Positions 6,503-58,909 of a stretch of DNA of 64,000 nucleotides are shown piece after piece (position 1 is the first letter of the stretch; each line of letters begins with the position of its first letter). The position numbers and the translations under genes are program-made. The notes under the pieces are model-generated. The model worked only from the letters and a program-made list of their open reading frames with translations. It had not been told where the DNA came from and ran no database searches. The stretch lies in the IMG/VR virus record IMGVR_UViG_3300007735_000802. The stretch is one strand, 5' to 3'. The stretch is from a virus.

Positions 6503-8218
6503 TCAAAACCATGGCATTTTTAGATCTTTTTTGTCGATAATCAACCATCTGTCATCTTCTTCGCTCCATTTCGAATCCTCTAAAATATCATCAACATCAA
6601 GGGATCCATCCAAATAATATCCAAATGGCAACATATCATCTTCTATTTTTTCAATGTCTTGTTGATACATTGCTAATCGAACATCCATATCAGTTAGACT
6701 CTTAAAATATGGTTGCCTTGTACACCATGCAAATAAAACCAAACACATGACAAGATCATCATTATGACCATCTTCTGCTTCAAAACTTTGCTTTTTGGAA
6801 ATAAATGTTGTAAACTCTGAGATCACATCAGCGTCTTCTACAATTAGTTTATCTTCCTCAATCATATTTTTGAGGACTTGACAACCAACCTTTTTTGTAA
6901 GAACCGATGTTTTAACTCCTAATTGAACTTTTTTGACAGGTCCAAATCCCTCGGTCATGACCTGACCTTTTCTACCCATCATTGTCGTTTTCACTATATT
7001 TTCATATTCCAGATCTGTATGAAGTATATTTGCAACTTCTATTCCTATACTGTTCACTTCTACCAGTACATGGGCATTGTTGTATTTTCTAGCAACTGTT
7101 TTGAGAACAGAGGCAAACAATAAAGGAGAGACTGTGTTATTTCTGTATGTTGCAACTACTTTATAAGGAAACTCAGTAACATCCACTACTGCCATTGCTG
7201 TATAGTCTTTTCCCTGTCCTTCAGCAACATCGGCGGTTATAAAATATAAATGATCTTGACTTTTTTCATTATCTGGATCTTTTCTAACAGGTTCCTGATA
7301 AATGTTCATTCCATCTTTTGTTCTGAGTATTGGTTTTGTATAAACCAATGTGTGTAACTTTGCAGATGATATTAAAGTATTTGAACTTCCCAAAAAGTCA
7401 CACTCGAACTCCTGCTCGAATTGCTTTTCTGAAGTTTTAGAAATCATGTCTTGTTTCCACTTGTCATCACGCAAGGGTCCACCTGGATATTTTGGAACTT
7501 GACTCCAGTGAACTTCAAAAGGAACATATCCATTTTGTTTGTTGATTGCACCCTTCCAATAGTAATAGAACATGTTCAAACCATTGGGGGTTGATATGAT
7601 AAACATTTTGGTAGACTGACCAGATGTAATTGTTGGATATACAGAGGTAAAGAACTCTTCCGCAATTTGCGTAGGAATGTGAGCAAATTCGTCTAGGAGA
7701 ATGCAGTTGAAAGAACCACCACGAATAGCAGAAGAAGATGTTGCCGCTGCTAAAATTCTAGACCCATTCTCAAGAACAATGGATCCCTTGTTCCATTCAA
7801 TAACACCTTGCTGTAACCACTTAGGCAAATATTCATATGCCATTTTAATTCTTCCTAAAATTTCAATGGCAGTGGATTGTTTGTTTGCAAGAATAGCAAC
7901 ATTCATATTTTGATTAAACAAAACATAATGTAGTAAATATGCACCTACGGTTGTGGTTTTACCAACCTGACGAGGAAGTTTACCTATAACAAATCGATTG
8001 CTGTGTAAATTTTGAATTAGTTCTTTTTGAAAATCATACATTTCAAAGGAAACAAGACCCTTATCAACAGCAACAATTTTTACATATTTTTCAACAAAAT
8101 AGATTGGATCATTTGCACATTTTACATATTCTTGAACTTGTTCTTGAGTAAATTGTTGCTGTACACCTACTGGTTTTAGATTTGGGTTTCCAAGATATCC
8201 ATCTTTTTTAGCTGTCAT
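6503..8218 (-). CDS. gp17: Terminase large subunit (T4 gp17-like)
   Basis: YLGNPNLK, Walker A PRQVGKTT, Walker B LLDEFA, ISTPNG, nuclease DDLVM. Confidence 0.98.
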   Translation of the reverse strand: MTAKKDGYLGNPNLKPVGVQQQFTQEQVQEYVKCANDPIYFVEKYVKIVAVDKGLVSFEMYDFQKELIQNLHSNRFVIGKLPRQVGKTTTVGAYLLHYVLFNQNMNVAILANKQSTAIEILGRIKMAYEYLPKWLQQGVIEWNKGSIVLENGSRILAAATSSSAIRGGSFNCILLDEFAHIPTQIAEEFFTSVYPTITSGQSTKMFIISTPNGLNMFYYYWKGAINKQNGYVPFEVHWSQVPKYPGGPLRDDKWKQDMISKTSEKQFEQEFECDFLGSSNTLISSAKLHTLVYTKPILRTKDGMNIYQEPVRKDPDNEKSQDHLYFITADVAEGQGKDYTAMAVVDVTEFPYKVVATYRNNTVSPLLFASVLKTVARKYNNAHVLVEVNSIGIEVANILHTDLEYENIVKTTMMGRKGQVMTEGFGPVKKVQLGVKTSVLTKKVGCQVLKNMIEEDKLIVEDADVISEFTTFISKKQSFEAEDGHNDDLVMCLVLFAWCTRQPYFKSLTDMDVRLAMYQQDIEKIEDDMLPFGYYLDGSLDVDDILEDSKWSEEDDRWLIIDKKDLKMPWF

Positions 8219-8678
8219 TTTCCACTTCTTCCGTAGGTATGGCTTTTAATTGACTACGAGTTTGATTTATAATATTTTGAAGATCCCGAGTAGAACCAAC
8301 AAATATAGAATTATTTGTTGTATTCTTTACTACTTTATTTGTTCCTAGAGCATCTGCTGTTGTTTTATGCATTTCCATAAGATCAGAATTTATTTCACTT
8401 ACTGTCTTAATAAGAATAGAAGCAACTTCATATGCTCTTGGCGAATCTCCCGCTTCTGCAACTTTCATGATGCCATCAATTGCTTCAAACCCAAGACCAA
8501 TTAGATCTTTCATATTTTTTCTGGCAGAATCAAAATCTTGTCTGACTTGATCTTTTCTTTTTATTTTTGCTTTTTTTGCAAAATCATTAACTACTTCAAT
8601 TTCTTTAATTTCAGACTTTGTTATTTCAATGTCTAATATTTCAGAAAGTTTTTCTTCGGATGTGTTTTTGTCATTCAT
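8208..8678 (-). CDS. gp16: Terminase small subunit (T4 gp16-like)
   Basis: DSPRAYEVA and NNSIFVGSTRDLQ motifs; overlaps the gp17 start. Confidence 0.93.
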   Translation of the reverse strand: MNDKNTSEEKLSEILDIEITKSEIKEIEVVNDFAKKAKIKRKDQVRQDFDSARKNMKDLIGLGFEAIDGIMKVAEAGDSPRAYEVASILIKTVSEINSDLMEMHKTTADALGTNKVVKNTTNNSIFVGSTRDLQNIINQTRSQLKAIPTEEVENDS

Positions 8679-8688
8679 TGTACACCTT

Positions 8689-9435
8689 TCATGGCCATGG
8701 ACCTATTACTGGTGTTATAGAACCTGTTATATGATCACCAGTATAACCAATATCTGTTACAAATATATCACCAGCAGTTGTGTCATCATATAGATTGACA
8801 TCGGTTCTTTCTATTATTCCTCCCGTAGAACCACAAATTTCTGGATAGACATATGTCTTTGCTGTAAAGTCAAAACTACTAATCAATACTCTTCTTGAAT
8901 CAAAAGATCCTTCGTAATCTTCATTCAGGGCAACTCCATTCAATACCACAGGAACATCTACTTCCTGGTATAGATCATTCATCTTGATTCTCATCATATA
9001 TTCTGGAGCAAAGAATGGAACAACTTGTTCAATTATTTGCAACATATCATCCATATGTCTTGTGTATGCATATAAAGAAAATCCAATATTGTATGGAACT
9101 TCAGAATAAGCAGATTTATAAACTCCGTTTACTACATCTGCTCTCTTTATAAGTCTATTAACTTTTCTTGTTGGATCGTATAGTAAAGTTGTAATTTCAA
9201 ATCCGAGTTTTGGTAAGACTATCTGAACTCTGCTATCTTTTGTGAGACTGCTTTCTTGTGTAAGTTTCAGAATAAACTTTTCTTTACTTCCATATGCAAG
9301 TGGTACTCTGATTTTATCTTTTTCTGTATTGTCTGTGTTATATCTTGTCACATAGACAGAATCAAATAAAGATCCAAACGCGAGAACTGTTTTTCGTATG
9401 GACTGATTGTAGAATGTTTTATTTACGCTAAACAT
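8689..9435 (-). CDS. gp15: Tail sheath stabilizer / tail terminator (T4 gp15-like)
   Basis: FYNQSIRK, FGSLF, VPLAYGSKEKF, VPYNI, QIIEQVVPFF. Confidence 0.95.
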   Translation of the reverse strand: MFSVNKTFYNQSIRKTVLAFGSLFDSVYVTRYNTDNTEKDKIRVPLAYGSKEKFILKLTQESSLTKDSRVQIVLPKLGFEITTLLYDPTRKVNRLIKRADVVNGVYKSAYSEVPYNIGFSLYAYTRHMDDMLQIIEQVVPFFAPEYMMRIKMNDLYQEVDVPVVLNGVALNEDYEGSFDSRRVLISSFDFTAKTYVYPEICGSTGGIIERTDVNLYDDTTAGDIFVTDIGYTGDHITGSITPVIGPWP

Positions 9436-39236: not shown

Positions 39237-40208
39237 TTAAGTTGTTATTTTTGGAATTATATTTCCAAAAGTAAGTATTGCCCCTGATCTGTTTGTGATA
39301 TCTGTTCCGACTTCTCTTCCTGGTTTTGTAACTCTAAAGGCTGGTTCGAGTTCTATGAATTTTAGACCTATAGAATACACTGATGGTTTGATCAAACCAT
39401 CTTTTGATATTGCAGTCAAAAATGGCACATCAAGTGATGTTCTTTTTACCTTTACCGCTGCCAATACAGATAATTGTGGTTGACCAGACCAACTCGTATC
39501 AAATCTAAGAGAATCAATCGGTCCAACTCCAAATATCCAAAGAGGAGGATGATAAAACTTGCTAGTGCTCAAACTTCCCAATGATCTCATTGTGGGAAGC
39601 GCAAGTGATTCAAATGACATTGCAATATCACTCGCACTCTTAGAATCTTCCAAAGTTAAACATGGCAAAACAAGAGTAACATTAAAACTTCTATGAGGAC
39701 CAGATGGATAATATACCACATCGTTGATGTCTGGGAGAGTTAGATTTTGACCATATCCAAAACTTGCAACTCCTGCTTCTGCTAAAGATATAGCATCTCC
39801 TATTTTATTTACAGCTTCTCCTATGGTATCTGCTGTGTATTCAATTTCAGGACTGATTGATTTTAAAACAGAAAATAAACTCTGAACAACTGCTGGTAAT
39901 GATGTAATTGCGGATGTGGGTTGACTGCTATAGTTTATGGAAGTATCAGTTTCAAATCTAACTGGACTTGGCACTATTATTTGTGTCTTTAAATTTGAAA
40001 GTGTTGGAAACGATAAATCTCCATTTGACCTAACATTCGCTGCCACGCGATTTATGGCACTATTTGCATACTCATAGCAATAAAATTTCATCCAAAGTGG
40101 AATAGAAGCTCTTACATCCTCTTTATTTGGGAATATAAGAGTTCCGGTTCTTTCCAATATGGATGCAATATTTGCTTGATTGCCAACTGTATTTGGTGCT
40201 TGTGCCAT
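39237..40208 (-). CDS. gp48: Baseplate tail-tube cap (T4 gp48-like)
   Basis: HRSFNVTL, FYHPP, LKFIELE; precedes gp53 and is divergent from gp4. Confidence 0.7.
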   Translation of the reverse strand: MAQAPNTVGNQANIASILERTGTLIFPNKEDVRASIPLWMKFYCYEYANSAINRVAANVRSNGDLSFPTLSNLKTQIIVPSPVRFETDTSINYSSQPTSAITSLPAVVQSLFSVLKSISPEIEYTADTIGEAVNKIGDAISLAEAGVASFGYGQNLTLPDINDVVYYPSGPHRSFNVTLVLPCLTLEDSKSASDIAMSFESLALPTMRSLGSLSTSKFYHPPLWIFGVGPIDSLRFDTSWSGQPQLSVLAAVKVKRTSLDVPFLTAISKDGLIKPSVYSIGLKFIELEPAFRVTKPGREVGTDITNRSGAILTFGNIIPKITT

Positions 40209-40231
40209 TATTTTCCCTAAATATTTTTATA

Positions 40232-40678
40232 ATGCCCTATAAAACCAAATTTATTCCCAAAAACACTACAAAATATATAGGTGACATAAATAAAATAATT
40301 TGTCGTTCCTTGTGGGAAAGAAAGTTTTGTAAGTTTTTAGATGAAAATAAAAATGTGTTAAGATGGTCGTTTGAGACATTAAAAATACCATATGTCTCCC
40401 CCGTAGATAATATGCCTCATTTGTATCTTCCTGACTTTATAATCGAAAAGAAAAATAAAGAAGGAATAGTAGAGACTTTAGTGGTTGAAATCAAACCATA
40501 CAAACAGACAAAAGAACCAGTTGCTGGAAAAAGAAAAAGTAAAAGATCTTTAATTAATGAAAATATTACTTTTGCTATAAATAAAAGTAAGTGGGAAGCA
40601 GCAAAATCATTCTGCGATAAGCATTCTTGGAAGTTTGTAATCTTAACAGAAAAAGAGTTATTCAATGGCAAGAAATAG
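40232..40678 (+). CDS. gp4: Head completion protein (T4 gp4-like, TnsA-like nuclease fold)
   Basis: KYIGD..IICRSLWERKF, YLPDF, VEIKP, NKSKWEAA, ILTE; start moved to ATG 40232 (MPYKTKF). Confidence 0.93.
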   Translation: MPYKTKFIPKNTTKYIGDINKIICRSLWERKFCKFLDENKNVLRWSFETLKIPYVSPVDNMPHLYLPDFIIEKKNKEGIVETLVVEIKPYKQTKEPVAGKRKSKRSLINENITFAINKSKWEAAKSFCDKHSWKFVILTEKELFNGKK

Positions 40679-47418: not shown

Positions 47419-47775
47419 TCATATATTGCTTTCGTGTATTTCTCTATGGCAATTAGCACAGACTAAAATACATTTTGATAATTCTTTTTTAAGTTTGGTT
47501 TCGCTTAACATCCTCATTTTTGACCATTCATATTCTTTAGAAGTTTTATCCAAATGATGAAATTCTAGTGCAGACATTGACTTGTTATATCCACATTTAC
47601 TACAACAACCACCCATTTTGCTGACTACTTCTATTTTTCTAGATTTCCATCTGTCCATACAGTATTGATTGAAACAATCTTTACAATACGAATATGAGTC
47701 TTTTCTTCCCTTTCTAGAATAAAACTGATCTTGAGTTTTTTCTATAGCACATTTAGAGCATTTTTTTGTCGTCAT
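47419..47775 (-). CDS. HNH endonuclease with Zn ribbons
   Basis: CSKC...CKDC, CSKCGY...LEFHH...CANCHREIH; immediately 3' of tRNA-Arg. Confidence 0.85.
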   Translation of the reverse strand: MTTKKCSKCAIEKTQDQFYSRKGRKDSYSYCKDCFNQYCMDRWKSRKIEVVSKMGGCCSKCGYNKSMSALEFHHLDKTSKEYEWSKMRMLSETKLKKELSKCILVCANCHREIHESNI

Positions 47776-47807
47776 GGTATAGATATATATAATCTAACCA
47801 ATTTCAA

Positions 47808-47879
47808 CAACCCCACCAGGAATCGAACCTGGAATAACAGCTTAGAAGGCTGTGGTTATATCCTTTTAACTATGAGGTC
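47808..47879 (-). tRNA. trnR: tRNA-Arg(UCU)
   Basis: Cloverleaf; anticodon arm ACAGC-CTTCTAA-GCTGT; TTCGATT T-loop; no encoded CCA. Confidence 0.93.
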
Positions 47880-47891
47880 TTCGATGCACCT

Positions 47892-47920
47892 ATTATACCA
47901 CAATAGGTGTCCCGTGTCAA
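47892..47920 (-). promoter_or_regulatory. sigma70 promoter for tRNA-Arg
   Basis: TTGACA-17 nt-TATAAT, with TG extension. Confidence 0.8.
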
Positions 47921-47923
47921 GGG

Positions 47924-48241
47924 TTAAACCGAAAGTTTGAGATTTGAATTTCCAGTGGGATCTACAATCTTTTTACCCGGTACTACAAGATTATTTACAA
48001 TTACAGATGTGTAATGATCTCCTAGTTCCTTTTGTGGATCTACCATGAAAACAATATTTTTCTTTTCGATGATTACGCCACTCTCTGTATTTGCGTATGG
48101 AATCCATCGCGCGAGTAGCAACTTTCCTTCTGGAGACGGAATAAGAACTGCCGCATCCTTAAGAGTTACTGTGTCTTCATTAATTGTTGTATTTGAAATA
48201 ATTTCTTCACCACTTACCAAACGAATAATCTTCACTTCCAT
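47924..48241 (-). CDS. Sm-like domain protein of T4-like phages
   Basis: MEVKIIRLVSGEEII...WIPY pattern; GGAG SD. Confidence 0.7.
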   Translation of the reverse strand: MEVKIIRLVSGEEIISNTTINEDTVTLKDAAVLIPSPEGKLLLARWIPYANTESGVIIEKKNIVFMVDPQKELGDHYTSVIVNNLVVPGKKIVDPTGNSNLKLSV

Positions 48242-48246
48242 TATAT

Positions 48247-48483
48247 TTACTCCTTGTTTTCTGAACATCTAAACATTATACGATCCCAAAATGTACACTT
48301 TGGGGGTTTATCAATAGGCCAACATGTACAACATGTTGATGGCCTAATATTTTCATTTTTTGGATCTATGAATCGATCAATACCTTTTTCAATTTCTTTG
48401 AGAGAAAGAAACATATCAATACATCTACCATCTCTGGTTGTTTGAACATGAATCAATTCTGATCGTTTTACTTCTCTTGGCAT
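48247..48483 (-). CDS. Hypothetical protein
   Basis: 78-aa ORF with GGAG SD. Confidence 0.6.
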   Translation of the reverse strand: MPREVKRSELIHVQTTRDGRCIDMFLSLKEIEKGIDRFIDPKNENIRPSTCCTCWPIDKPPKCTFWDRIMFRCSENKE

Positions 48484-48505
48484 TTTAGATCTCCATTATA
48501 GTCAA

Positions 48506-48835
48506 TTACACATTGATGTCAATATTTATCTTTCCTTTTTTTGCTTTTATCTTGTTTGAAACAAAATCATATATCAATTCCAATGATTTTAATCCTATAA
48601 ATCCCATGACAAATGCAGTTCCATATTTACCATTGTTTTGTATATATTCTGGCATAAAATTCAAAACTATTGGTGTAAGGTAATTTGCACATATTGCGCC
48701 AGCAAATATAGATGTTATTGCTTTTCCCGGTGTTTGATTCTTTGTAGTGAGGGCAAGCAACAATGCTCCAAAAAATCCAGCCATAACGAGTCCAAAATCT
48801 ATCCCGTAATTTGAGTTTTCTGAAGACTGATCCAT
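48506..48835 (-). CDS. Putative holin (3 TM segments, basic C-terminus)
   Basis: AGFFGALL, AGAICANYLTP, AFVMGFIG; late promoter TATAAATA at 48892-48899. Confidence 0.6.
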   Translation of the reverse strand: MDQSSENSNYGIDFGLVMAGFFGALLLALTTKNQTPGKAITSIFAGAICANYLTPIVLNFMPEYIQNNGKYGTAFVMGFIGLKSLELIYDFVSNKIKAKKGKINIDINV

Positions 48836-48901
48836 GCACAATTCCTTATTTAATATTAATATCAAACACATATTAAATAGGGTTGCAACCTTATTTATAA
48901 T

Positions 48902-49195
48902 TCATCTTTTTTGTCTGGTTTTTGTAGTAAAAAAGACGAACATAGAAATGACAAAAATAGTCATAGGTGCTGAAATATTGTGTATATGTGTAGCATTGTG
49001 GTGATAAAACTTGTAATCCAAATCAATCTTATATCTGATAATATATTCACTTTGTTCATATTTTTCCAGACTTGGATGATAATTTATGCCTACATTGGAT
49101 TTATATGATTCTGGCAACATCCATCCATAATTCACATCGTTAATTTTAATATCTTTTTTTTCTTTTATCATCAGAAGAATGTCTTGTTTTGACAT
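48902..49195 (-). CDS. Hypothetical protein with C-terminal TM helix and basic tail
   Basis: ...ISAPMTIFVISMFVFFTTKTRQKR. Confidence 0.55.
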   Translation of the reverse strand: MSKQDILLMIKEKKDIKINDVNYGWMLPESYKSNVGINYHPSLEKYEQSEYIIRYKIDLDYKFYHHNATHIHNISAPMTIFVISMFVFFTTKTRQKR

Positions 49196-49199
49196 GTCT

Positions 49200-49556
49200 T
49201 CAGGAAAACCATGAACTAGAGAAGTCGTGTATTGTGCTTACTTCTCTAGTTTCTCCTTCTTTGTTTTCTTTTGGTATTTCAAACGATTCTACCTTATCGT
49301 TTATTTGTTCAACCCCAGAAAAAATATCAACAATCTTATCAGCAAACTCTTTACCGATCAGGGTTATTGCAATAACCATTACTACGGTAAGTGCAAATAT
49401 TTTCTTTTCTAATTTTTCTATAGAAAGAAATGCCACCTTTTTATCTTCTTCACATTGCTTACATTTAGAATCTTTACATTCTGATAATTGTTTTTCACAT
49501 TCGTTACAGTAATTTTGTTCCTTTGAATTCATTGTAGCTCCTCTAGCTGAAACCAC
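49200..49556 (-). CDS. Single-TM membrane protein with Cys-rich N-terminus
   Basis: CNEC...C...CKQC followed by a TM segment; late promoter TATAAATA at 49586-49593. Confidence 0.6.
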   Translation of the reverse strand: MVSARGATMNSKEQNYCNECEKQLSECKDSKCKQCEEDKKVAFLSIEKLEKKIFALTVVMVIAITLIGKEFADKIVDIFSGVEQINDKVESFEIPKENKEGETREVSTIHDFSSSWFS

Positions 49557-49594
49557 AATAATATACCCGAGTCACTACATGCATATATTTATAT

Positions 49595-49619
49595 AAAAAA
49601 ACCCACCATTTCTGGTGGG
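49595..49619 (-). terminator. Rho-independent terminator after the tmRNA coding piece
   Basis: CCCACCA-GAAA-TGGTGGG followed by a T7 run on the minus strand. Confidence 0.8.
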
Positions 49620-49852
49620 AGTCAATTCAGTCGCGGGATGACCAGTCCCCACTGCTTTAGGCAGCACGACGCATTGGAGCGGCGTTTATAAGTGCCAACT
49701 TTGGCATTTAACGAGGGTTGTTGACTACCTCTCGGATATCTCCCTATTACTTACATCCCCCCGTCGATTCTGTTCGACCCCGTAGGTTTGAATGGAGTCG
49801 GGGGGATTCGCACCCCCGTGCAGTTGGGTAGTTTGTAAAGATCAACGATATC
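49620..49852 (-). ncRNA. ssrA: Circularly permuted (two-piece) tmRNA; tag AAPMRRAA
   Basis: Minus strand: T-arm and CGACTCC-A (ends 49793), 11-nt spacer, then 5' end GGGGTCGAACAGAATCGAC (starts 49781); G3.U70 pair; PK1; ATAAAC then tag ORF at 49683-49657. Confidence 0.9.
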
Positions 49853-49860
49853 ATTTTTAT

Positions 49861-50124
49861 TTATGGTCTGTCAACTAGATAAATGGATTCTTGATCTACA
49901 ATATCAAGACCGTTATGAGATCCTTTAATTTTTGTGATATCCCACAAAACAAGATCTCCGATCTTAATATCTTCAGTTAGATGTGGTCCAATATCAACGA
50001 CCTTTGACCAAACCATTTTATTTGTTACCTTGTCATCGTAAATAATTCCTGCTTCGGTAGTCTTTCTGCCACCGAATGTTCGTTTAAGCAGAACTGTCTT
50101 TCCCACTGGTTTAATATTTTTCAT
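49861..50124 (-). CDS. groES: Co-chaperonin GroES-like protein
   Basis: IKPVGKTVLLK...TTEAGII...VVDIGP...IKIGDLVL. Confidence 0.85.
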   Translation of the reverse strand: MKNIKPVGKTVLLKRTFGGRKTTEAGIIYDDKVTNKMVWSKVVDIGPHLTEDIKIGDLVLWDITKIKGSHNGLDIVDQESIYLVDRP

Positions 50125-50441
50125 TGCGAATCCTTATTAACAAAATTTTGAAGAGCAGTGGACATTCTGCTCAACGATGATTGTGCGAGAAGAATTTCAT
50201 TTGCAACTCGTTGAAGTTCCTTATTTGTTTCTGCAAGAATTATGTTCTTGTCTTTGTGCATATTTGTGTGCATTTTTTCCAAATCATCAATTTCTGGTTT
50301 CATTGGAAAATGTTTCAAGCACTCAGATGCTCTTTTACGAACTTCACTAGGAACTCGCGGAGTCTTTTCTGGATTTAGCAAATCGAAAAGAAATTCACGA
50401 TTCTTACGCATTGATATGAACCATTCATTTGGAAGTGTCAT
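50121..50441 (-). CDS. BPSL0761-like conserved phage protein
   Basis: MTLPNE...REFL.DLL.P.KTPRVP...R.RA...LKHFP. Confidence 0.65.
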   Translation of the reverse strand: MTLPNEWFISMRKNREFLFDLLNPEKTPRVPSEVRKRASECLKHFPMKPEIDDLEKMHTNMHKDKNIILAETNKELQRVANEILLAQSSLSRMSTALQNFVNKDSQ

Positions 50442-50453
50442 AATAATCTCCAA

Positions 50454-50527
50454 TCGGGGTGACTGGATTTGAACCAACGACTTCTTGCTCCCAAAGCAAG
50501 CGCACTACCAAGCTGTGCTACACCCCG
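50454..50527 (-). tRNA. trnP: tRNA-Pro(UGG)
   Basis: CGGGGTG acceptor; CTTGC-TTTGGGA-GCAAG. Confidence 0.95.
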
Positions 50528-50529
50528 TA

Positions 50530-50601
50530 AGCCACCTATGAGATTCGAACTCACGACCCATGCTTTACAAAAGCATAGCTCTACCGCTGAGCTAAAGTGG
50601 C
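50530..50601 (-). tRNA. trnT: tRNA-Thr(UGU)
   Basis: ATGCT-TTTGTAA-AGCAT; canonical D and T arms. Confidence 0.95.
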
Positions 50602-50602
50602 A

Positions 50603-50785
50603 TCATTCATCTTTGCCTCTGCCCCAACCATAAAGAGTACGATATTCTTCTCTGTTGCGAATATGTTCTTTATTTTGAATTTCTAAAAATTCAATTTTAC
50701 TTCTTGCTTCTGAAAGAAGCTGGGATAGATTCAAATCATTTGTATTTATTGCTGCTTGATGCAATCTAGTTTTAATGTCTTCCAT
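50603..50785 (-). CDS. Small hypothetical protein within the tRNA cluster
   Basis: MEDIKTRL... ORF between tRNA-Asn and tRNA-Thr. Confidence 0.55.
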   Translation of the reverse strand: MEDIKTRLHQAAINTNDLNLSQLLSEARSKIEFLEIQNKEHIRNREEYRTLYGWGRGKDE

Positions 50786-50788
50786 AAA

Positions 50789-50861
50789 CTCTCTGAACTG
50801 GGATCGAACCAGTGACATCAAAGTTAACAGCTTTGCGCTCTACCTGCTGAGCTATCAGAGA
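50789..50861 (-). tRNA. trnN: tRNA-Asn(GUU)
   Basis: CAAAG-CTGTTAA-CTTTG; TCTCTGA/TCAGAGA-G acceptor. Confidence 0.95.
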
Positions 50862-50866
50862 ATAAA

Positions 50867-50955
50867 AGCGTAGCGAAGGACTTGAACCTTTTTCTCACTT
50901 TGCTTTACAGCAAATCTAGTGTGCCTCTGAGTGCGCTACTCAACTGATACTACGC
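50867..50955 (-). ncRNA. Non-canonical tRNA-like RNA
   Basis: 7-bp acceptor GCGTAGT/GCTACGC and AAGG-TTCAAGT-CCTT T-arm, but no standard D or anticodon arm; packed between tRNA-Glu and tRNA-Asn. Confidence 0.65.
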
Positions 50956-50957
50956 AA

Positions 50958-51031
50958 TACCCTAACGGGGACTCGAACCCCGACTCACTGCCTTGAAAGG
51001 GCAGGGATTTAGCCAGTTAATCTATTAGGGC
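50958..51031 (-). tRNA. trnE: tRNA-Glu(UUC)
   Basis: CTGCC-CTTTCAA-GGCAG. Confidence 0.95.
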
Positions 51032-51036
51032 GTTAT

Positions 51037-51180
51037 TCAACCAATGATGCTAAGAATGTAAAACCCAACAAAACCCAACACCACACATTGCAACAATAAA
51101 CTAACAACCAAAAGACCAATCATGGTATTTAGTGAATAGTTTATATCTTCAAACAACTTATCCTTTTCATCATCTGTCAT
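51037..51180 (-). CDS. Small single-TM membrane protein
   Basis: MTDDEKDK... followed by a long hydrophobic helix. Confidence 0.55.
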   Translation of the reverse strand: MTDDEKDKLFEDINYSLNTMIGLLVVSLLLQCVVLGFVGFYILSIIG

Positions 51181-51182
51181 AG

Positions 51183-51254
51183 TACGCCGTACAGGTGCTG
51201 CCCCTGTGCTTAGACGATTATAAGTCGTCCTGAGATGCTGACCTCCCACGGCGC
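51183..51254 (-). tRNA. trnI: tRNA-Ile(UAU) with non-canonical T-loop GGCAGCA
   Basis: GCGCCGT/ACGGCGT-A acceptor; GACGA-CTTATAA-TCGTC; ACAGG-GGCAGCA-CCTGT. Confidence 0.85.
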
Positions 51255-51263
51255 GTTGGTATT

Positions 51264-51292
51264 ATTATACCATGTTAGTTATTGTATGTCAA
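51264..51292 (-). promoter_or_regulatory. sigma70 promoter for the tRNA cluster
   Basis: TTGACA-17 nt-TATAAT, with TG extension. Confidence 0.8.
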
Positions 51293-51587
51293 GCTCTTCA
51301 TCAAGTTTTGTCAAAGTTTGCAGTGCTTCGATTTGATCCATTTTTGGAACAACAATCTTTGACTTTTTGTTGTTTACATGACCATTTTCATTCTTGATTA
51401 AATAATTACTCTTTTGACGATCATCATCGTGTCCAAGACGATAATTGATTTCTTGAATGCCGATAGCATTTAGAATAATCGCCTTGTCATCATGATCTGC
51501 GAGAAGTCCTAGAATTTGAATAGAAGCAATGCGCGCTTCTTCCTCACCCATTTCGAGTGGGATATCAATGTGAAGTCGATACGGCAT
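51279..51587 (-). CDS. Hypothetical protein
   Basis: MPYRLHIDIP... ORF. Confidence 0.65.
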   Translation of the reverse strand: MPYRLHIDIPLEMGEEEARIASIQILGLLADHDDKAIILNAIGIQEINYRLGHDDDRQKSNYLIKNENGHVNNKKSKIVVPKMDQIEALQTLTKLDEELDIQ

Positions 51588-51589
51588 AA

Positions 51590-51745
51590 TCAATCCTGTA
51601 AAAATTGCACAACATCACTCTTTGCAACTTCTAAAAGTTGACCAGAGTCTGTTTTAATCTTAATCATTTCATTTCCAAAAAGGTCTGTGAAAGTCTCAAC
51701 AATCACGCATGTTTCTTTTGTTTCTTTAAGAATATACTTGCTCAT
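51590..51745 (-). CDS. Small hypothetical protein (51 aa, not in the ORF track)
   Basis: MSKYILKETKETCVIVETF...; GGAG SD; fills the gap exactly. Confidence 0.55.
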   Translation of the reverse strand: MSKYILKETKETCVIVETFTDLFGNEMIKIKTDSGQLLEVAKSDVVQFLQD

Positions 51746-51748
51746 AAT

Positions 51749-52117
51749 TTACTCCATTCTCTTAATACCTTCATTATCGGTATAGTATATATCGTCAAAC
51801 ACTTCAAGACACCACGGAGTACACAACTCACATGGTCTTGACATACGCAATTCACGAAAACGATTATATCGTACATTCACAAGCGTGAGTTTTAGTCCAC
51901 GATACTTGTATGGAAGTTTACGATATGCATCAAGTTCTGAATGCATTTCTTCGTAAGGATAACCAATTTCTTTTGCTTTTGGATGAGTCTTAAAACAATT
52001 TCTTCCAATTGAAAGAAGTCTCTTCTTGTGAAAGATTAAAGATATATGCTTCTTTTGCCTTGGAATCTCCAAGCACAAAGGATAAGCAAAATTTAAAAGA
52101 TTATCAAAGTCTGTCAT
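51749..52117 (-). CDS. Zn-dependent cytidine/dCMP deaminase-fold protein
   Basis: HSE...SRPCELC motif. Confidence 0.8.
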   Translation of the reverse strand: MTDFDNLLNFAYPLCLEIPRQKKHISLIFHKKRLLSIGRNCFKTHPKAKEIGYPYEEMHSELDAYRKLPYKYRGLKLTLVNVRYNRFRELRMSRPCELCTPWCLEVFDDIYYTDNEGIKRME

Positions 52118-52172
52118 AAAAAACAAAGATGTGGCATTTCTACCACATCTTCGCAAGTATTGAATTGTATGA

Positions 52173-52451
52173 TCAGGCGTTGATCATGAAACGAGAACCG
52201 TCCTTGCGGAACCCATAGGTACGACGACCCGGATGAGTGTCACGCATGAAGTAACGGGTAGTGTTGCCGTTCTCCACAGTCTCAATCTCCCAGTTACCGT
52301 ACTGCTCGACCTGCTCACGAATGTCGCTCATGGTCGCACGGAGATTCTGAACGCCGTACTTGTTGAGTGCTTCACGCGCATCGATACCCCAACCACGGGC
52401 GAGATGATTAATGACCTGACGCTTCTTGCTGAGAGTGTTGCTGTTTGCCAT
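52173..52451 (-). CDS. Small winged-HTH-like DNA-binding protein with GC-rich codon usage
   Basis: QVINHL...EA..YGVQNLRATMSDIR; own sigma70 promoter (TTGACT-16 nt-TATAAT, 52533-52560). Confidence 0.65.
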   Translation of the reverse strand: MANSNTLSKKRQVINHLARGWGIDAREALNKYGVQNLRATMSDIREQVEQYGNWEIETVENGNTTRYFMRDTHPGRRTYGFRKDGSRFMINA

Positions 52452-52636
52452 AACGATATAATCCTTTACCTTTGACTCTTAGAAACCATCCGAACTCAGG
52501 TGAGTCATGCCGTCGTTCGGTTAACTGCGTATATTATAACAGATCCTGATGGGAAGTCAAGCCCCTTGACTGCTTTCCTAAAAGTTTTTTAAAGTTCAAA
52601 GTTTAAAGTTTTTAAAAATAAAAGTGAGCTAATAGC

Positions 52637-52933
52637 TCACTCTTTAGGCTGCTTGCGGTAGTTTAGCTTCCACAATGCTTTTGCAATTGTCGTTCCCGTT
52701 TCCAGAACTGCTTCTTCAGAAAGTTCCGGTCTTACTGCATGAAGAACTTCGTGAATGATTGTATCCATCAAGTCTATTGGTTTTAGACTTCGCTTTACCC
52801 ATATTTCAGGTTTTGCATATTTTGGATCATCACATTCACCACAAGTATCATGAGATAGTTCTGTAGATTTTACAATCTTAATCTTCCAATTTTTCTTGTT
52901 GATTCGAATTGTAATTTCTTCCTCTGGAACCAT
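52637..52933 (-). CDS. Minimal zincin metallopeptidase-like protein
   Basis: GEC...IWV...DTIIHEVLHA...EE. Confidence 0.75.
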   Translation of the reverse strand: MVPEEEITIRINKKNWKIKIVKSTELSHDTCGECDDPKYAKPEIWVKRSLKPIDLMDTIIHEVLHAVRPELSEEAVLETGTTIAKALWKLNYRKQPKE

Positions 52934-53035
52934 CGGATTCCTCCGTCATATTTAGATCATTCTTTTCACTTTCTGCTAATCGTTTTAAAGTTTGATCATA
53001 TCTGTCAAAAATCTTTTTTATAATTTCTGACAGAA

Positions 53036-53203
53036 TCAATCAGCACCACTTTTGGTTGGTTTTGTGTCATCCCAATGTTTAATGGAATTTTTCTTTTTCT
53101 TCTTCTTACCAAAGATACGATCCCAGTTGTCTGACCACTTTTTGTAGTCAACAGATCTGGGTCTATCTCCTTTTCCCGCAGAATGTTGTCTGTTATCACT
53201 CAT
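53036..53203 (-). CDS. Small basic conserved phage protein (not in the ORF track)
   Basis: AGKGDRPRSVDYKKWSDNWDRIF motif of a common small phage family. Confidence 0.65.
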   Translation of the reverse strand: MSDNRQHSAGKGDRPRSVDYKKWSDNWDRIFGKKKKKKNSIKHWDDTKPTKSGAD

Positions 53204-53205
53204 AG

Positions 53206-53276
53206 AGCGGAATGCGGGAATCGAACCCGCCTCACTAGATTGGAAATCTAGCGCATTACCGATATGCTAATCCCGC
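53206..53276 (-). tRNA. trnG: tRNA-Gly(UCC)
   Basis: GCGGGAT acceptor, U73; CTAGA-TTTCCAA-TCTAG. Confidence 0.95.
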
Positions 53277-53316
53277 GAAAGTAGTCCTAACATACATATG
53301 TATATAAGGTCTACAA

Positions 53317-53736
53317 ATGAAAAAATCTATCTGTACAAATTGTTTAAAAGATTTCGAGCATCGTATCCAATGTTCAACTGGCAAATATTGTTCAAATAAA
53401 TGTCAACAAGATTACCAATCAAAACAATCATTACAAAAATGGTTAGATGGTACATGGGATGGAACAAAAAAAGGGTTTTCTCTTTCTAGCACTGTCAGAA
53501 AATATTTATTAGAACAAACAAATCATAAATGTTCAAAATGTGGCTGGTGTGAGATAAATCCAACTACAGGTAAAAGTCCATTAGAAATTGATCATATTGA
53601 TGGAAATTCTGAAAATAGTAGACCAGAAAATTTAAGAGTTCTCTGTCCAAATTGTCATTCCCTCACACCAACCTATAAAGCATTAAATTATGGTAAAGGT
53701 AGCAAAGCAAGATTAAAATACCATAAATTAATTTAA
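53317..53736 (+). CDS. HNH homing endonuclease inserted between tRNA-Lys and tRNA-Gly
   Basis: CTNC...YCSNKC, CSKCG...LEIDHIDGN...NLRVLCPNCH. Confidence 0.88.
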   Translation: MKKSICTNCLKDFEHRIQCSTGKYCSNKCQQDYQSKQSLQKWLDGTWDGTKKGFSLSSTVRKYLLEQTNHKCSKCGWCEINPTTGKSPLEIDHIDGNSENSRPENLRVLCPNCHSLTPTYKALNYGKGSKARLKYHKLI

Positions 53737-53808
53737 TGCTTCGGGTGGGTACTGCCCCCACATTCTTCACCTTAAAAGGGTGCTGCATTGCTAGTCTGCC
53801 ACCGAAGC
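53737..53808 (-). tRNA. trnK: tRNA-Lys(UUU) with non-canonical T-loop GGCAGUA
   Basis: GCTTCGG/CCGAAGC-A; CACC-CTTTTAA-GGTG; GTGGG-GGCAGTA-CCCAC. Confidence 0.85.
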
Positions 53809-53814
53809 GGTTTT

Positions 53815-53893
53815 GTGTGATTGGCGAATTCACACCATTTAACGCCTAGTTTCATTTGTAATTGTGGGGTAGAAACTATAAGATTCCCACAAT
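53815..53893. ncRNA. Two tandem H-type pseudoknots 5' of tRNA-Lys
   Basis: Crossing helices 53861-68/53886-93 with 53847-53/53872-78, and 53823-26/53843-46 with 53815-20/53830-35. Confidence 0.5.
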
Positions 53894-54076
53894 CATGATT
53901 TTTTTCGAAAATCACAAAAACTCTCATAATATAATAATACTTTAAATATAATCTGACATTTTAAATAACAATCATAATATATCTCCAGTTATTATAACAC
54001 AAATTATTTTATACCATCTTGCTTTTAGCGCAGGAACCCCCTCTAGCGCGAGGGGGAATTCACTTGTGTACGCACA

Positions 54077-54592
54077 TTATACCAGAACCGGAGCGTTTGT
54101 CAAGCCTTCTCTGTACCAATCTGGAATTTCTGTAAATTTCCATTTTGCGAATCGAGACTTTGCGCCAATATAATATTTTCGATATGCCGTTACTGCATCC
54201 CCAGGAACTTTAAATTCCTCTGGCATTGCTTGTGCAAATGGTGTCAAATGCCCCTCTGGAACTTGCAGAGGAGGATGAAATCTAAACCATTCAGTCATTG
54301 CATGTGCCAAATGAATTTTATTGTAGCGACGAGTATACTCAAGTGACAATTCGTGAGTATGTTCTGCTAACCAAAAATAGTTATCAGTGGTCTGCCTTGC
54401 CCATATCGTACATGGATGATTCTGAAATGATTGTTTGTACAAACTAACAGGTGCATATACGACATGACTGCCAGACATACGATGATTCGTGGAGAGCATT
54501 TGACAACCCTCCACGATCATTTTTACCACATGCTTGTCACACATCATATGTGCAGCAATGCGTGGATTTTCATGCAATACAAAAATATTCAT
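54077..54592 (-). CDS. Pyrimidine dimer DNA glycosylase / endonuclease V family protein
   Basis: MNIFVL...CDKHVVKMIVE..QMLST...NHPCTIW...EYTRRY...FAQAMP...AYRKYY. Confidence 0.85.
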   Translation of the reverse strand: MNIFVLHENPRIAAHMMCDKHVVKMIVEGCQMLSTNHRMSGSHVVYAPVSLYKQSFQNHPCTIWARQTTDNYFWLAEHTHELSLEYTRRYNKIHLAHAMTEWFRFHPPLQVPEGHLTPFAQAMPEEFKVPGDAVTAYRKYYIGAKSRFAKWKFTEIPDWYREGLTNAPVLV

Positions 54593-58128: not shown

Positions 58129-58581
58129 ATGCTGAATACTGTTTCACTTTACAATATGTCGTATCAGAAGATCCTTGAAATCGACTGGAAACACGCAGTC
58201 GTTTTATTGATCAATGGAAAAGTTTCTCCATGCACAGAGGAGGAGTTTTTAGAAATACGCACTGGTAGTGGTATTTTCAAACTACCCCTCCATATCAGTT
58301 TAAAAAAATATGTACATTTACCATACAGAGAGGTAAGTCCATCTCGAAAGAATATTTTCAAGAGAGATGATTATACATGCCAGTATTGCTCTGTCAAGAT
58401 GAGTGGAGAAGACGCAACAATTGACCATGTTCTTCCTCGTTGTCGAGGAGGCAAGCATGAATGGAATAATGTAGTCACTTGTTGTTTGCGGTGTAATCGT
58501 AAAAAGGGAAATAAGACTCCAGCAGAAGCAAACATGCCACTAAACAAAACACCCAAACCTTTGAGATTTGGGTGTTTGTAG
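58129..58581 (+). CDS. HNH endonuclease (McrA-like)
   Basis: RKNIFKRDDYTCQYC...TIDHVLP..RGG...WNNVVTCC.RCN.KKG. Confidence 0.9.
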   Translation: MLNTVSLYNMSYQKILEIDWKHAVVLLINGKVSPCTEEEFLEIRTGSGIFKLPLHISLKKYVHLPYREVSPSRKNIFKRDDYTCQYCSVKMSGEDATIDHVLPRCRGGKHEWNNVVTCCLRCNRKKGNKTPAEANMPLNKTPKPLRFGCL

Positions 58582-58599
58582 ACTACTCATATATTTAAT

Positions 58600-58881
58600 T
58601 TATGTTGAGTTTCGATTAGTGCGAGTGGGTCTTGGTCCACCAGGATTAATTGGTCTTGGATTAATAGGACCAGGTCTTGGTCCACCTGGATTTGGTGGTC
58701 TTGGTGGACTTGGTGGACGAGGAGGTCTTGGTGGACCGGGTTGTACGGGAATTGGTGGATTTGGTGGTGGACCGGGTCGGGGTGGTGTTGTTCCGGGTGG
58801 ACCAGCAAATTCTTCCTGTTCATATACTTCATACATTAAAGACTCTAATAGTTTTTGTTTAAAATAATTTTTAAAATTCAT
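58600..58881 (-). CDS. Pro/Arg-rich low-complexity protein with capsid-targeting-like N-terminus
   Basis: MNFKNYFKQKLLE, then PPRP/PGGPRP repeats; TATAAATA at 58907-58914. Confidence 0.6.
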   Translation of the reverse strand: MNFKNYFKQKLLESLMYEVYEQEEFAGPPGTTPPRPGPPPNPPIPVQPGPPRPPRPPSPPRPPNPGGPRPGPINPRPINPGGPRPTRTNRNST

Positions 58882-58909
58882 AGATCTCTCTCTCTTTCTT
58901 CTTTTATAT

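What the first reader, a model, noticed from the sequence alone, without database searches (positions are those of the whole stretch)
49770..53808. Co-varying non-canonical tRNA elbow (D-loop AG with T-loop G55) in three RNAs
Seen in the sequence: tRNA-Ile(UAU) has T-loop GGCAGCA and D-loop ...CAGCA. tRNA-Lys(UUU) has T-loop GGCAGUA and D-loop ...UAGCAA. The tmRNA has T-loop UGCGAAU and D-loop AACAGAAU. All three replace the universal G18G19 and U55 with A18G19 and G55, while the other six tRNAs keep GG and UUC. Inference: a compensated alternative elbow rather than decay, since the stems are intact. It would bypass TruB/TrmA modification and might evade host tRNA-targeting defence nucleases. 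tRNA-Lys(UUU) is the established target of PrrC-type anticodon nucleases.
Basis: partly seen in the sequence, partly recalled or inferred. Interest (0 to 1): 0.7.

Follow-up and report, generated by a model that had tools for sequence, protein, structure and literature searches.

The report
Phage tRNAs with rewired elbow
Two tRNA genes and the ribosome-rescue RNA (tmRNA) of this uncultured T4-like phage replace the near-universal corner contact G18-U55 with a matched A18-G55 pair; this looks like a working alternative design, also found in many phage tRNAs and in all alphaproteobacterial tmRNAs sampled, and standard gene finders miss it.

Summary
tRNA-Lys(UUU) (53738-53808, minus), tRNA-Ile(UAU) (51184-51254, minus) and the permuted tmRNA all carry G55 in the T-loop with A18-G19 in the D-loop. 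The six other tRNAs keep GG and UUC.

These genes are not decaying:
- Ile(UAU) has orthologues with canonical, GGCAG-type and AGCGU-type elbows, compensatory stem changes, and a perfect sigma-70 promoter.
- The nearest tmRNA relative has UGG/UUC where the window has CAG/UGC.
- Among 133 assignable, pattern-unselected cloverleaf tRNAs from viral contigs, 31 are A18/G55, 102 are G18/U55 and none is discordant.
- The GGCRG T-loop with AG is also the elbow of 32 of 32 alphaproteobacterial tmRNAs sampled.
- UGCRA with an intercalating A is the generic non-tRNA T-loop.

A 99%-identical relative carries a canonical tRNA-Lys where the window has the variant tRNA-Lys plus an HNH endonuclease gene, so this is a cassette swap.

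Function is inferred, not shown. The design removes U54/U55, which TrmA, TruB and a published T-loop defence nuclease need. With only three variant RNAs here, the trait may be near-neutral in this phage.

This scan has noted the same elbow repeatedly on other DNA. I found no paper describing it in tRNAs.

The parts
53738..53808 (-). tRNA-Lys(UUU) with variant elbow. D-loop ACUAGCA with A18 at 53792 and G19 at 53791. T-loop GGCAGUA at 53750-53756 with G55 at 53755. Discriminator A at 53737. No CCA is encoded.
   Evidence: Rfam tRNA 45.5 bits. Cloverleaf as minimum-energy fold. Own cloverleaf scan. The same gene, 97.5% identical over 79 nt, sits in the otherwise DNA-dissimilar contig L129.
53317..53736 (+). 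HNH endonuclease gene abutting the variant tRNA-Lys. Together with that tRNA it forms a cassette, about 53278-53836, that is absent from the 99%-identical relative G001.
   Evidence: Pfam HNH_3 27.9 bits and HNH 22.7 bits, both above their cut-offs. G001 has a canonical tRNA-Lys(UUU) and no HNH gene at this site.
51184..51254 (-). tRNA-Ile(UAU) with variant elbow. D-loop UCAGCA with A18 at 51239 and G19 at 51238. T-loop GGCAGCA at 51196-51202 with G55 at 51201. Discriminator A at 51183.
   Evidence: Cloverleaf fold with z = -2.7. Orthologues carry canonical, class I and AGCGU elbows and compensatory stem changes. Identical in G001.
51264..51292 (-). Consensus sigma-70-type promoter (TTGACA, 17 nt, TATAAT, with TG extension). 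It ends 9 nt before G1 of tRNA-Ile(UAU).
   Evidence: It is the only 12-of-12 match in 49400-54100.
49566..49886 (-). Circularly permuted (two-piece) tmRNA gene with tag AAPMRRAA*. T-loop UGCGAAU at 49806-49812 with G55 at 49811. The 3' acceptor strand is at 49794-49800 and the 5' acceptor strand at 49775-49781, with G3:U70. In the D-loop analogue AACAGAAU at 49767-49774, the A18 equivalent is 49771 and the G19 equivalent is 49770.
   Evidence: ARAGORN. RF04321 at 64.2 bits against a gathering score of 47. Alignment with 10 relatives that all have GG and UUC.
47808..47879 (-). tRNA-Arg(UCU) with a canonical elbow, used here as a comparison. This gene is also swapped, together with a neighbouring weak HNH-like ORF (47419-47775), relative to G001.
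50454..51031 (-). Canonical tRNAs Pro, Thr, Asn and Glu, which have GG and UUC. They are the internal controls. The stretch also contains non-tRNA sequence.
53205..53276 (-). tRNA-Gly(UCC) with a canonical elbow. It marks the left border of the Lys/HNH cassette.

Best explanation
These are working genes for tRNA-Lys(UUU), tRNA-Ile(UAU) and tmRNA, built on an alternative elbow.

How the elbow is built (inferred from sequence and from published T-loop structures):
- The intercalating D-loop base is A18 instead of G18. It contacts G55 instead of pseudouridine 55, as in the UGNRA-type T-loops of riboswitches and rRNA.
- The outer G19:C56 pair is kept. That pair forms the flat face that other molecules dock on (background knowledge).
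- The 54-58 pair is either kept (U-A in the tmRNA) or replaced (G-G in the two tRNAs). The second arrangement is exactly the elbow of alphaproteobacterial tmRNA.

What is shown:
- Strict covariation of positions 18 and 55.
- Orthologue series that switch elbow type as a unit.
- Conserved stems, anticodon loops and discriminators.
- A consensus promoter in front of Ile(UAU).
- The same design in a known functional RNA class.

How it got here:
- The Lys gene arrived as a cassette with an HNH homing-type endonuclease gene and replaced a canonical tRNA-Lys. This is shown by comparison with a 99%-identical relative.
- The tmRNA switched within its own lineage.

What is inferred:
- Without U54/U55 these RNAs cannot receive m5U54 or pseudouridine 55. 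The tmRNA loses only pseudouridine 55.
- They should also escape enzymes that read the UUC motif, such as T-loop-cutting Schlafen-type defence nucleases.
- That advantage probably matters most in phages with complete variant tRNA sets. In this phage, with three variant RNAs, the trait may be close to neutral.
For: - Sequence and folds.
- Covariation: 31 A18/G55, 102 G18/U55, 0 discordant. With unambiguous 7-nt D-loops the counts are 15 AG/GC and 55 GG/UC.
- Controls within one 54/58 background: GUCAGUA goes with GG, while GGCAGYA goes with AG. The 19:56 pair also covaries, to U:A and A:U.
- Ile(UAU) orthologues: canonical in L129, L008 and L004; class I in the window, G001 and L132; AGCGUUA with AAAGUU in L007. 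Acceptor, anticodon and T stems change in a compensatory way.
- tmRNA: ten relatives have GG with UUC. The nearest (L008) differs at positions 17/18 and 55, and also has two compensatory acceptor pairs.
- 32 of 32 sampled alphaproteobacterial tmRNAs have a GGC[AG]G T-loop with [CU]AG in the D-loop analogue.
- Perfect promoter before Ile. A TTGACA-17-TATAAT promoter precedes the same Lys gene in L129.
- Cassette swap.
- Papers: an intercalating A hydrogen-bonds to the sugar edge of the G at T-loop position 2, and UGNRA accounts for 88.7% of the T-loops in the FMN-riboswitch alignment that preprint analysed (bioRxiv 10.1101/2022.12.26.521914). Cash cuts 5' of U55, and U54 or U55 substitutions abolish cutting (PMC13462974).
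Against: - There is no direct evidence that these RNAs are transcribed, processed, CCA-tailed or charged.
- Ile(UAU) gets no Rfam tRNA hit at all. It has G8 and U14, although its canonical orthologues share both.
- Lys has a G27-A43 mismatch.
- Only 3 of 9 tRNA-type RNAs in this window are variant, and a 99%-identical phage uses a canonical Lys. A broad T-loop nuclease would therefore still cripple this phage, so the adaptive part is weak here.
- The covariation statistic is not corrected for relatedness, and the sample came from contigs chosen for holding at least one variant tRNA.
Confidence: 0.7

Rival explanations
1. Neutral alternative. A18-G55 is simply a second, equally fit solution for the elbow. 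It is reached by compensatory drift in fast-evolving phage RNA genes and then shuffled between phages by recombination and homing endonucleases. It has no role in defence or modification avoidance.
For: - Patchy use within one phage, 3 of 9 RNAs.
- Near-identical phages differ only in which Lys allele they carry.
- A canonical-for-canonical tRNA-Arg swap happened the same way.
- The design works in all sampled alphaproteobacterial tmRNAs, with no obvious link to defence.
Against: - Some phage contigs have converted nearly whole tRNA sets: 12 high-confidence variant tRNAs in L117 and 6 in L151. Drift alone is unlikely to do that.
- A double change with a presumably unfit intermediate recurs in many independent tRNA families.
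Confidence: 0.25
2. Selection at the DNA level. The altered T-arm sequence protects the tRNA gene from a homing endonuclease, or another DNA-targeting agent, that recognises the highly conserved GGTTCGAATCC segment of tRNA genes. The D-loop change is then only a repair of the damage this does to the RNA.
For: - The variant Lys gene sits beside an HNH gene in the window and beside a weak HNH-like ORF in L129.
- The cassette is polymorphic between near-identical genomes, and divergence rises on one flank: 92.6% against 99.4% identity.
- Precedent: T4 SegB sits in the tRNA gene cluster and drives preferred inheritance of that region (PMC2330249).
Against: - The other swapped cassette in this window, tRNA-Arg(UCU) with its neighbouring HNH-like ORF, keeps a canonical T-arm.
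- The Ile(UAU) gene and the tmRNA have no adjacent endonuclease gene.
- Chromosomal alphaproteobacterial tmRNAs use the same elbow.
Confidence: 0.1
3. These are decaying pseudogenes, or tRNA-like decoys, that no longer decode.
For: - ARAGORN misses both tRNAs, and Rfam misses Ile entirely.
- They lack the universal GG and T-psi-C motifs.
Against: - The cloverleafs are perfect, with U33, A37 and A73.
- The anticodon loop is conserved across orthologues, and stem changes are compensatory.
- Ile(UAU) has a perfect promoter.
- Covariation is strict.
- The variant Lys occupies the slot of a canonical Lys in a sister phage.
Confidence: 0.05

Closest known systems
Canonical tRNA elbow (G18-pseudouridine 55, G19:C56, T54-A58, purine 57), as reviewed in PMC7912444
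   Same: Same cloverleaf and same 7-nt T-loop closed by G53:C61. The G19:C56 pair and purine 57 are kept. A D-loop base still faces position 55.
   Different: A18 and G55 replace G18 and U55. In the two tRNAs, G54 and G58 replace U54 and A58. There is no substrate uridine for TrmA or TruB. Gene finders tuned to GG and TTC miss these genes.
Two-piece tmRNA of Alphaproteobacteria (Rfam RF01849). From memory, its T-loop signature is described as GGCRGUA.
   Same: The T-loop is GGC[AG]G and the D-loop analogue has [CU]AG instead of UGG in 32 of 32 genomes read here. This is the same elbow as the window's Lys and Ile tRNAs. The window's tmRNA D-loop (AACAGAAUCGAC) is of the same form.
   Different: Here the GGCAG loop is in decoding tRNAs of a phage, not in a tmRNA. 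The window's own tmRNA uses UGCGA, not GGCRG. It scores below the RF01849 cut-off: 29 bits for the near-identical G001 copy.
Non-tRNA T-loop motifs: UGNRA/CGNRA loops of FMN and cobalamin riboswitches, and the rRNA GGAAG T-loop (bioRxiv 10.1101/2022.12.26.521914)
   Same: G is at loop position 2. An adenine intercalates between positions 4 and 5 and bonds to that G. UGCGA and UGCAA fit the UGNRA consensus, and GGCAG resembles GGAAG.
   Different: Those loops dock onto receptors inside riboswitches or rRNA. Here the motif is used in the tRNA and tmRNA elbow, together with a G19:C56 pair.
T4 SegB homing endonuclease in the tRNA gene cluster (PMC2330249; PMC13096335)
   Same: A free-standing endonuclease gene lies inside a T4-like tRNA cluster. 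Near-identical phages differ by replacement of the neighbouring tRNA gene and by divergence of one flank.
   Different: The endonuclease is HNH rather than GIY-YIG. Cleavage and homing were not tested. The cargo tRNA has a variant elbow.
Phage tRNAs that escape anticodon nucleases (Azam et al. 2024, PMC11555353, as cited in PMC13462974; the T5/PARIS tRNA-Lys case from memory)
   Same: These are phage-encoded copies of tRNAs that defence systems target, with sequence changes at the site the nuclease reads.
   Different: In the known cases the changes are in the anticodon stem-loop. Here they are in the elbow, and no cognate nuclease has been identified for this phage.

Membership tests
tRNA (Rfam RF00005) | Cloverleaf with a 7-bp acceptor stem, 3-4-bp D stem, 5-bp anticodon stem and 5-bp T stem, a 7-nt anticodon loop with U33 and purine 37, and a discriminator base | tested here: met
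   Both genes parse this way, and the cloverleaf is their minimum-energy fold. Lys has a G13-A22 mismatch and a G27-A43 mismatch.
tRNA (Rfam RF00005) | Covariance-model score at or above the gathering score of 29 bits | tested here: inconclusive
   Lys scores 45.5 bits, but only with permissive filters. Ile(UAU) gets no hit at E<=10, although its canonical orthologue in L129 is called by ARAGORN.
tRNA (Rfam RF00005) | Conserved G18-G19 in the D-loop and U54-U55-C56 in the T-loop | tested here: not met
   The D-loops have AG. The T-loops are GGCAGUA and GGCAGCA. This departure is the finding itself.
tRNA (Rfam RF00005) | Processing, CCA addition and aminoacylation | not testable with these tools
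   No sequencing run on record as RNA holds the region.
Permuted tmRNA (Rfam RF04321) | Model score above the gathering score, an acceptor stem with G3:U70, and a tag reading frame ending in AA-stop | tested here: met
   64.2 bits against 47. The GGGGUCG/CGACUCC stem with G3:U70 was read. The tag is AAPMRRAA*.
Permuted tmRNA (Rfam RF04321) | T-loop UUCGA with GG in the D-loop analogue | tested here: not met
   The window has UGCGAAU and AACAGAAU. All ten relatives have UUC and GG.
A18-G55 alternative elbow (working class defined here and in earlier notes of this scan) | G55 occurs only together with A18, and G19:C56 is retained | tested here: met
   3 of 3 RNAs in the window. 31 of 31 in unselected viral cloverleafs, with no discordant case.
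A18-G55 alternative elbow (working class defined here and in earlier notes of this scan) | The 54-58 pair is one of U-A, A-U or G-G | tested here: met
   G-G in Lys and Ile, U-A in the tmRNA. Among 34 G55 loops in the wider sample: U-A 17, G-G 8, A-U 7, other 2.
Free-standing homing endonuclease cassette | An endonuclease domain, plus presence/absence polymorphism between closely related genomes with co-converted flanks | tested here: met
   HNH_3 and HNH score above their cut-offs. The gene is absent from G001. Flank identity is 99.4% on one side and 92.6% on the other.
Free-standing homing endonuclease cassette | Site-specific cleavage of the allele that lacks the endonuclease | not testable with these tools
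   This needs a biochemical assay.

The most novel reading that the evidence does not exclude
The A18-G55 elbow, with its 54-58 variants, is an anti-defence design. It removes the U54-U55 dinucleotide that T-loop-cutting tRNases such as Schlafen-type Cash need, so phage-encoded tRNAs and tmRNA survive a defence that destroys the host's tRNA pool. Homing-endonuclease cassettes spread single resistant tRNA genes between phages, as caught here in the swap of canonical Lys for variant Lys plus HNH.
Probability: 0.3. Interest if true: 0.85.

Novelty: new variant of a known kind. Interest (0 to 1): 0.6.

Why it matters
G18, T54 and pseudouridine 55 are taught as near-universal features of tRNA, and gene finders rely on them.

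A second elbow that strictly covaries and is apparently functional has several consequences:
- Phage tRNA inventories are undercounted. ARAGORN missed every GGCAG-type tRNA I checked it against here.
- The T-loop modifications would be dispensable for decoding.
- Phages would hold a pool of tRNAs that enzymes reading the UUC motif cannot touch.

The authors of the 2026 paper on T-loop-cutting Schlafen nucleases left open whether phage tRNAs are targeted. These natural variants make that question directly testable.

This window adds three specific points:
- A natural allele swap between near-identical phages.
- An orthologue series of one tRNA with three elbow types.
- The identity of the GGCRG/AG elbow with that of alphaproteobacterial tmRNA.

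Tried and rejected
- Expression: the look-up of sequencing runs listed no RNA holder. The four runs laid were contigs, and the two labelled RNA-Seq are probably DNA, so they say nothing about transcripts or RNA ends. They do show the HNH/variant-Lys junction in another sample (X10, record 8).
- Cultured relatives: no DNA or protein match to any phage in the phage collection beyond conserved tRNA stretches. The host remains unknown.
- Phage-encoded T-loop nuclease: I looked for one next to the variant tRNA arrays in L117 and L151. Pfam found only HNH, GIY-YIG, sugar-metabolism and methylase genes.
- Literature: no paper holds both U55G and G18A. None holds GGCRGUA. None describes variant T-loops in phage tRNAs.
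- Bacterial genomes: the scan with the class I pattern returned mostly chance hits in GC-rich DNA and about six real tRNAs.
- Pair counting on alignment A1: not done, because MAFFT shifted L007's T-stem by one column. I read the pairs from my own cloverleaf parse instead.
- Odd tRNA-like RNA at 50868-50955: I could not assign D-loop positions 18/19, so it is not used as evidence.

Full report
**What is in the window**

ARAGORN and the default Rfam run find six canonical tRNAs on the minus strand (Arg-UCU, Pro, Thr, Asn, Glu, Gly). They also find a circularly permuted tmRNA: RF04321, 64 bits, tag AAPMRRAA*.

With permissive filters, Rfam finds a tRNA at 53737-53808 at 45.5 bits against a gathering score of 29. 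It has anticodon UUU, D-loop ACUAGCA and T-loop GGCAGUA.

The Ile(UAU) candidate at 51184-51254 gets no Rfam hit even at E<=10. It nevertheless folds into a cloverleaf as its minimum-energy structure, with z = -2.7. Its D-loop is UCAGCA and its T-loop is GGCAGCA.

The tmRNA has T-arm GGGGG-UGCGAAU-CCCCC. Its D-loop analogue is AACAGAAUCGAC, where the family consensus has UGG.

The six canonical tRNAs all have GG and UUC. One addition: the two tRNAs also change positions 54 and 58, to G and G.

**These are real genes, not decay**

I fetched 67 related viral loci through the neighbouring GroES-like gene.

Orthologues of the Ile(UAU) gene share its acceptor stem, the unusual G8-G9, the extra AG before the anticodon stem, and the anticodon loop CUUAUAA. 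They come with three different elbows:
- Canonical, UCUUGGUUA with UUCGAAU, in L129, L008 and L004. ARAGORN calls the L129 copy tRNA-Ile(tat).
- UCAGCA with GGCAGCA in the window, G001 and L132.
- AAAGUU with AGCGUUA in L007.

The acceptor, anticodon and T stems differ between these orthologues by compensatory changes. The D-stem does so in L007.

A 12-of-12 sigma-70 consensus promoter (TTGACA, 17 nt, TATAAT, with a TG extension) ends 9 nt before G1. It is the only perfect match in 4.7 kb.

For the tmRNA, ten relatives all have GG and UUC. The nearest, L008, reads AAUGGAAUCGA and GGGGGUUCGAAUCCCCC. The window reads AACAGAAUCGA and GGGGGUGCGAAUCCCCC. Two acceptor pairs also change in a compensatory way.

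**The covariation is general**

I scanned viral contigs for AGCA, then 29-33 nt, then GGGGCAGYACC. About 33 of the hits are perfect cloverleaf tRNAs in unrelated contigs. Their anticodons cover Asp, Glu, Gly, Ile, Lys, Pro, Ala, Cys, CAU, Ser, Thr and Gln.

That pattern fixes both loops, so it cannot test covariation. I therefore scanned all 190 loci with my own cloverleaf finder, which puts no constraint on loop sequence. I excluded every tRNA that matched the search pattern. Position 18 was assigned from the D-loop register that lets position 19 pair with position 56.

Results among high-scoring unique cloverleafs:

| Class | Count |
|---|---|
| A18/G55 | 31 |
| G18/U55 | 102 |
| A18/U55 | 0 |
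| G18/G55 | 0 |

- Fisher p = 5e-31, not corrected for relatedness.
- The 31 fall into 30 clusters at 80% identity, from 9 loci, with 20 anticodons.
- With 7-nt D-loops, where the register is unambiguous, the counts are 15 AG/GC and 55 GG/UC, with no discordant case.

Internal controls point the same way:
- GUCAGUA (U55 on the G54/G58 background) goes with AAAGGUA.
- AUCG..., CUCG... and UCCG... loops go with GG.
- Two tRNAs covary at 19:56 instead, as U19:A56 and A19:U56.
- Among 34 G55 loops, the 54-58 pair is U-A (17), G-G (8), A-U (7) or other (2).

ARAGORN reports many of the UGC and AGC classes. It reported none of the GGCAG tRNAs I checked it against, in the window, L117 and L172.

**How it compares with what is known**

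Two links make the design structurally credible.

First, T-loops outside tRNA are mostly UGNRA (88.7% of the T-loops in the FMN-riboswitch alignment that preprint analysed). An adenine intercalates between positions 4 and 5 and makes two hydrogen bonds to the sugar edge of the G at position 2. The same preprint mentions an rRNA T-loop GGAAG (bioRxiv 10.1101/2022.12.26.521914). UGCGA in the tmRNA and UGCAA fit the first consensus. GGCAG resembles the second.

In 32 of 32 parsed alphaproteobacterial tmRNAs, the T-loop is GGC[AG]G. The D-loop analogue reads [CU]AG-G-N-UCGAC, where standard tmRNAs have UGG (unpublished genome G046 was left out). The class I elbow of the window's two tRNAs is therefore exactly the elbow of an established functional RNA class.

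I found no paper that describes this elbow in tRNAs, or that pairs U55G with G18A. The library is limited, so this is not proof that no such paper exists.

This scan has noted the same elbow on many other genomes: 36 notes matched my first word query. Examples are e1-5405076, e1-4362434 and e1-3432542. My survey agrees with them independently.

**How the genes got here**

The nearest held record, G001, is 99.2-99.4% identical to the window across the core of this tRNA region (47884-53277). In place of window 53278-53836 it has about 120 bp carrying a canonical, non-orthologous tRNA-Lys(UUU) with GG and UUCGAUC. It has no HNH gene there.

In the window that slot holds the variant Lys and, on the opposite strand, an HNH endonuclease gene at 53317-53736, with Pfam scores above the cut-offs. 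Identity to G001 is 99.4% on the left of the cassette and 92.6% on the right. That pattern is what co-conversion would leave.

The same variant Lys gene, 97.5% identical over 79 nt, lies in contig L129. L129 does not otherwise align with the window at the DNA level, but it has the same gene neighbourhood (denV-like gene, winged-helix HTH gene). There the Lys gene sits behind a TTGACA-17-TATAAT promoter and next to a weak HNH-like ORF.

A second swap of the same kind affects tRNA-Arg(UCU) and a neighbouring weak HNH-like ORF. In that case both alleles are canonical. So endonuclease-linked tRNA replacement is a general process in this lineage, as with T4 SegB (PMC2330249). It is not tied to elbow type.

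**What it does**

Two steps have evidence: these are conserved, structured genes with decoding anticodons, and the elbow change is a coupled, selected substitution.

The remaining steps are inferred:
- The RNAs fold into the normal L shape with A18 stacked on G55.
- They lack m5U54 and pseudouridine 55. The tmRNA lacks only pseudouridine 55.
- They are poor substrates for enzymes that read UUC.

A concrete candidate enzyme exists. The CRISPR-associated Schlafen nuclease Cash cuts tRNAs 5' of U55, single U54 or U55 substitutions abolish cutting, and its authors state that whether phage tRNAs are targeted is open (PMC13462974).

Against a strong adaptive reading in this phage: only three of nine tRNA-type RNAs are variant, and a sister phage does without the variant Lys. 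The trait may be near-neutral here and advantageous mainly in phages with complete variant sets (12 high-confidence variant tRNAs in L117, 6 in L151). I found no nuclease gene beside those arrays.

PrrC acts on the anticodon loop.

**Verdict**

This is a new variant of a known kind. Within this scan it is a recurrent finding. This window contributes the allele swap, the three-elbow orthologue series, the tmRNA switch and the identity with the alphaproteobacterial tmRNA elbow.

Noticed in passing
window 50868-50955 (-); homologues L008:566-657, L054 about 8668-8760 (-), L067 about 6620-6724, L068: A conserved tRNA-like RNA with a GCGUAG/CUACGC acceptor-type stem and a T-arm. Its middle part is highly variable and has no recognisable anticodon arm. 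ARAGORN and Rfam both miss it. In distant relatives it sits immediately upstream of the tmRNA gene. Its T-loop is UUCAAGU in the window and L008, but UGCAAGU or UGCAGGU in L054, L067 and L068. I could not assign its positions 18/19.
   Followed up: partly
window 47419-47883 compared with L001:428-505: There is a second cassette difference from the 99%-identical relative G001. A non-orthologous tRNA-Arg(UCU) plus a 118-aa ORF with sub-threshold HNH similarity (E = 0.005) replaces a different tRNA-Arg(UCU). Both Arg alleles have canonical elbows.
   Followed up: partly
L062:13244-13313 (-) = L065:7416-7485 (-): A tRNA(CAU) that ARAGORN misses, with D-loop GACAGAA and T-loop UGCAACU (A18/G55). 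It has a C1-U72 mismatch and an A11:U24 pair. From memory, both are features associated with bacterial initiator tRNA.
   Followed up: no
L107 and L122 (viral contigs found): Variant-elbow tRNAs whose anticodon stems enclose 9-nt loops (CCUAAUGAA and AGUAAUGAC) instead of 7-nt loops. Both loops contain UAAUGA.
   Followed up: no
window 52173-52451 (-) with promoter 52533-52560 (-): A GC-rich 92-aa winged-helix (HTH_39) gene behind an 11-of-12 sigma-70 promoter, inside the AT-rich tRNA region. It varies strongly between environmental samples. L129 has a homologous domain next to its variant Lys gene.
   Followed up: no
window 58129-58581 (+) and 40163-40678 (+): Further mobile-type nuclease genes: a strong HNH_5 endonuclease, beside a 326-bp stretch (58581-58906) that is absent from G001, and a TnsA-like/endonuclease I-like gene. 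The region around the tRNAs is a mosaic of such insertions.
   Followed up: no
window 49566-49886 (-) and relatives: The tmRNA tag differs sharply within the phage group. It is AAPMRRAA or AAPMRMAA in the window, G001 and L008, and ANELAMAA, ANQMAMAA or ANEMAMAA in others. The window group also lacks a roughly 100-nt insert between the two tmRNA pieces.
   Followed up: no
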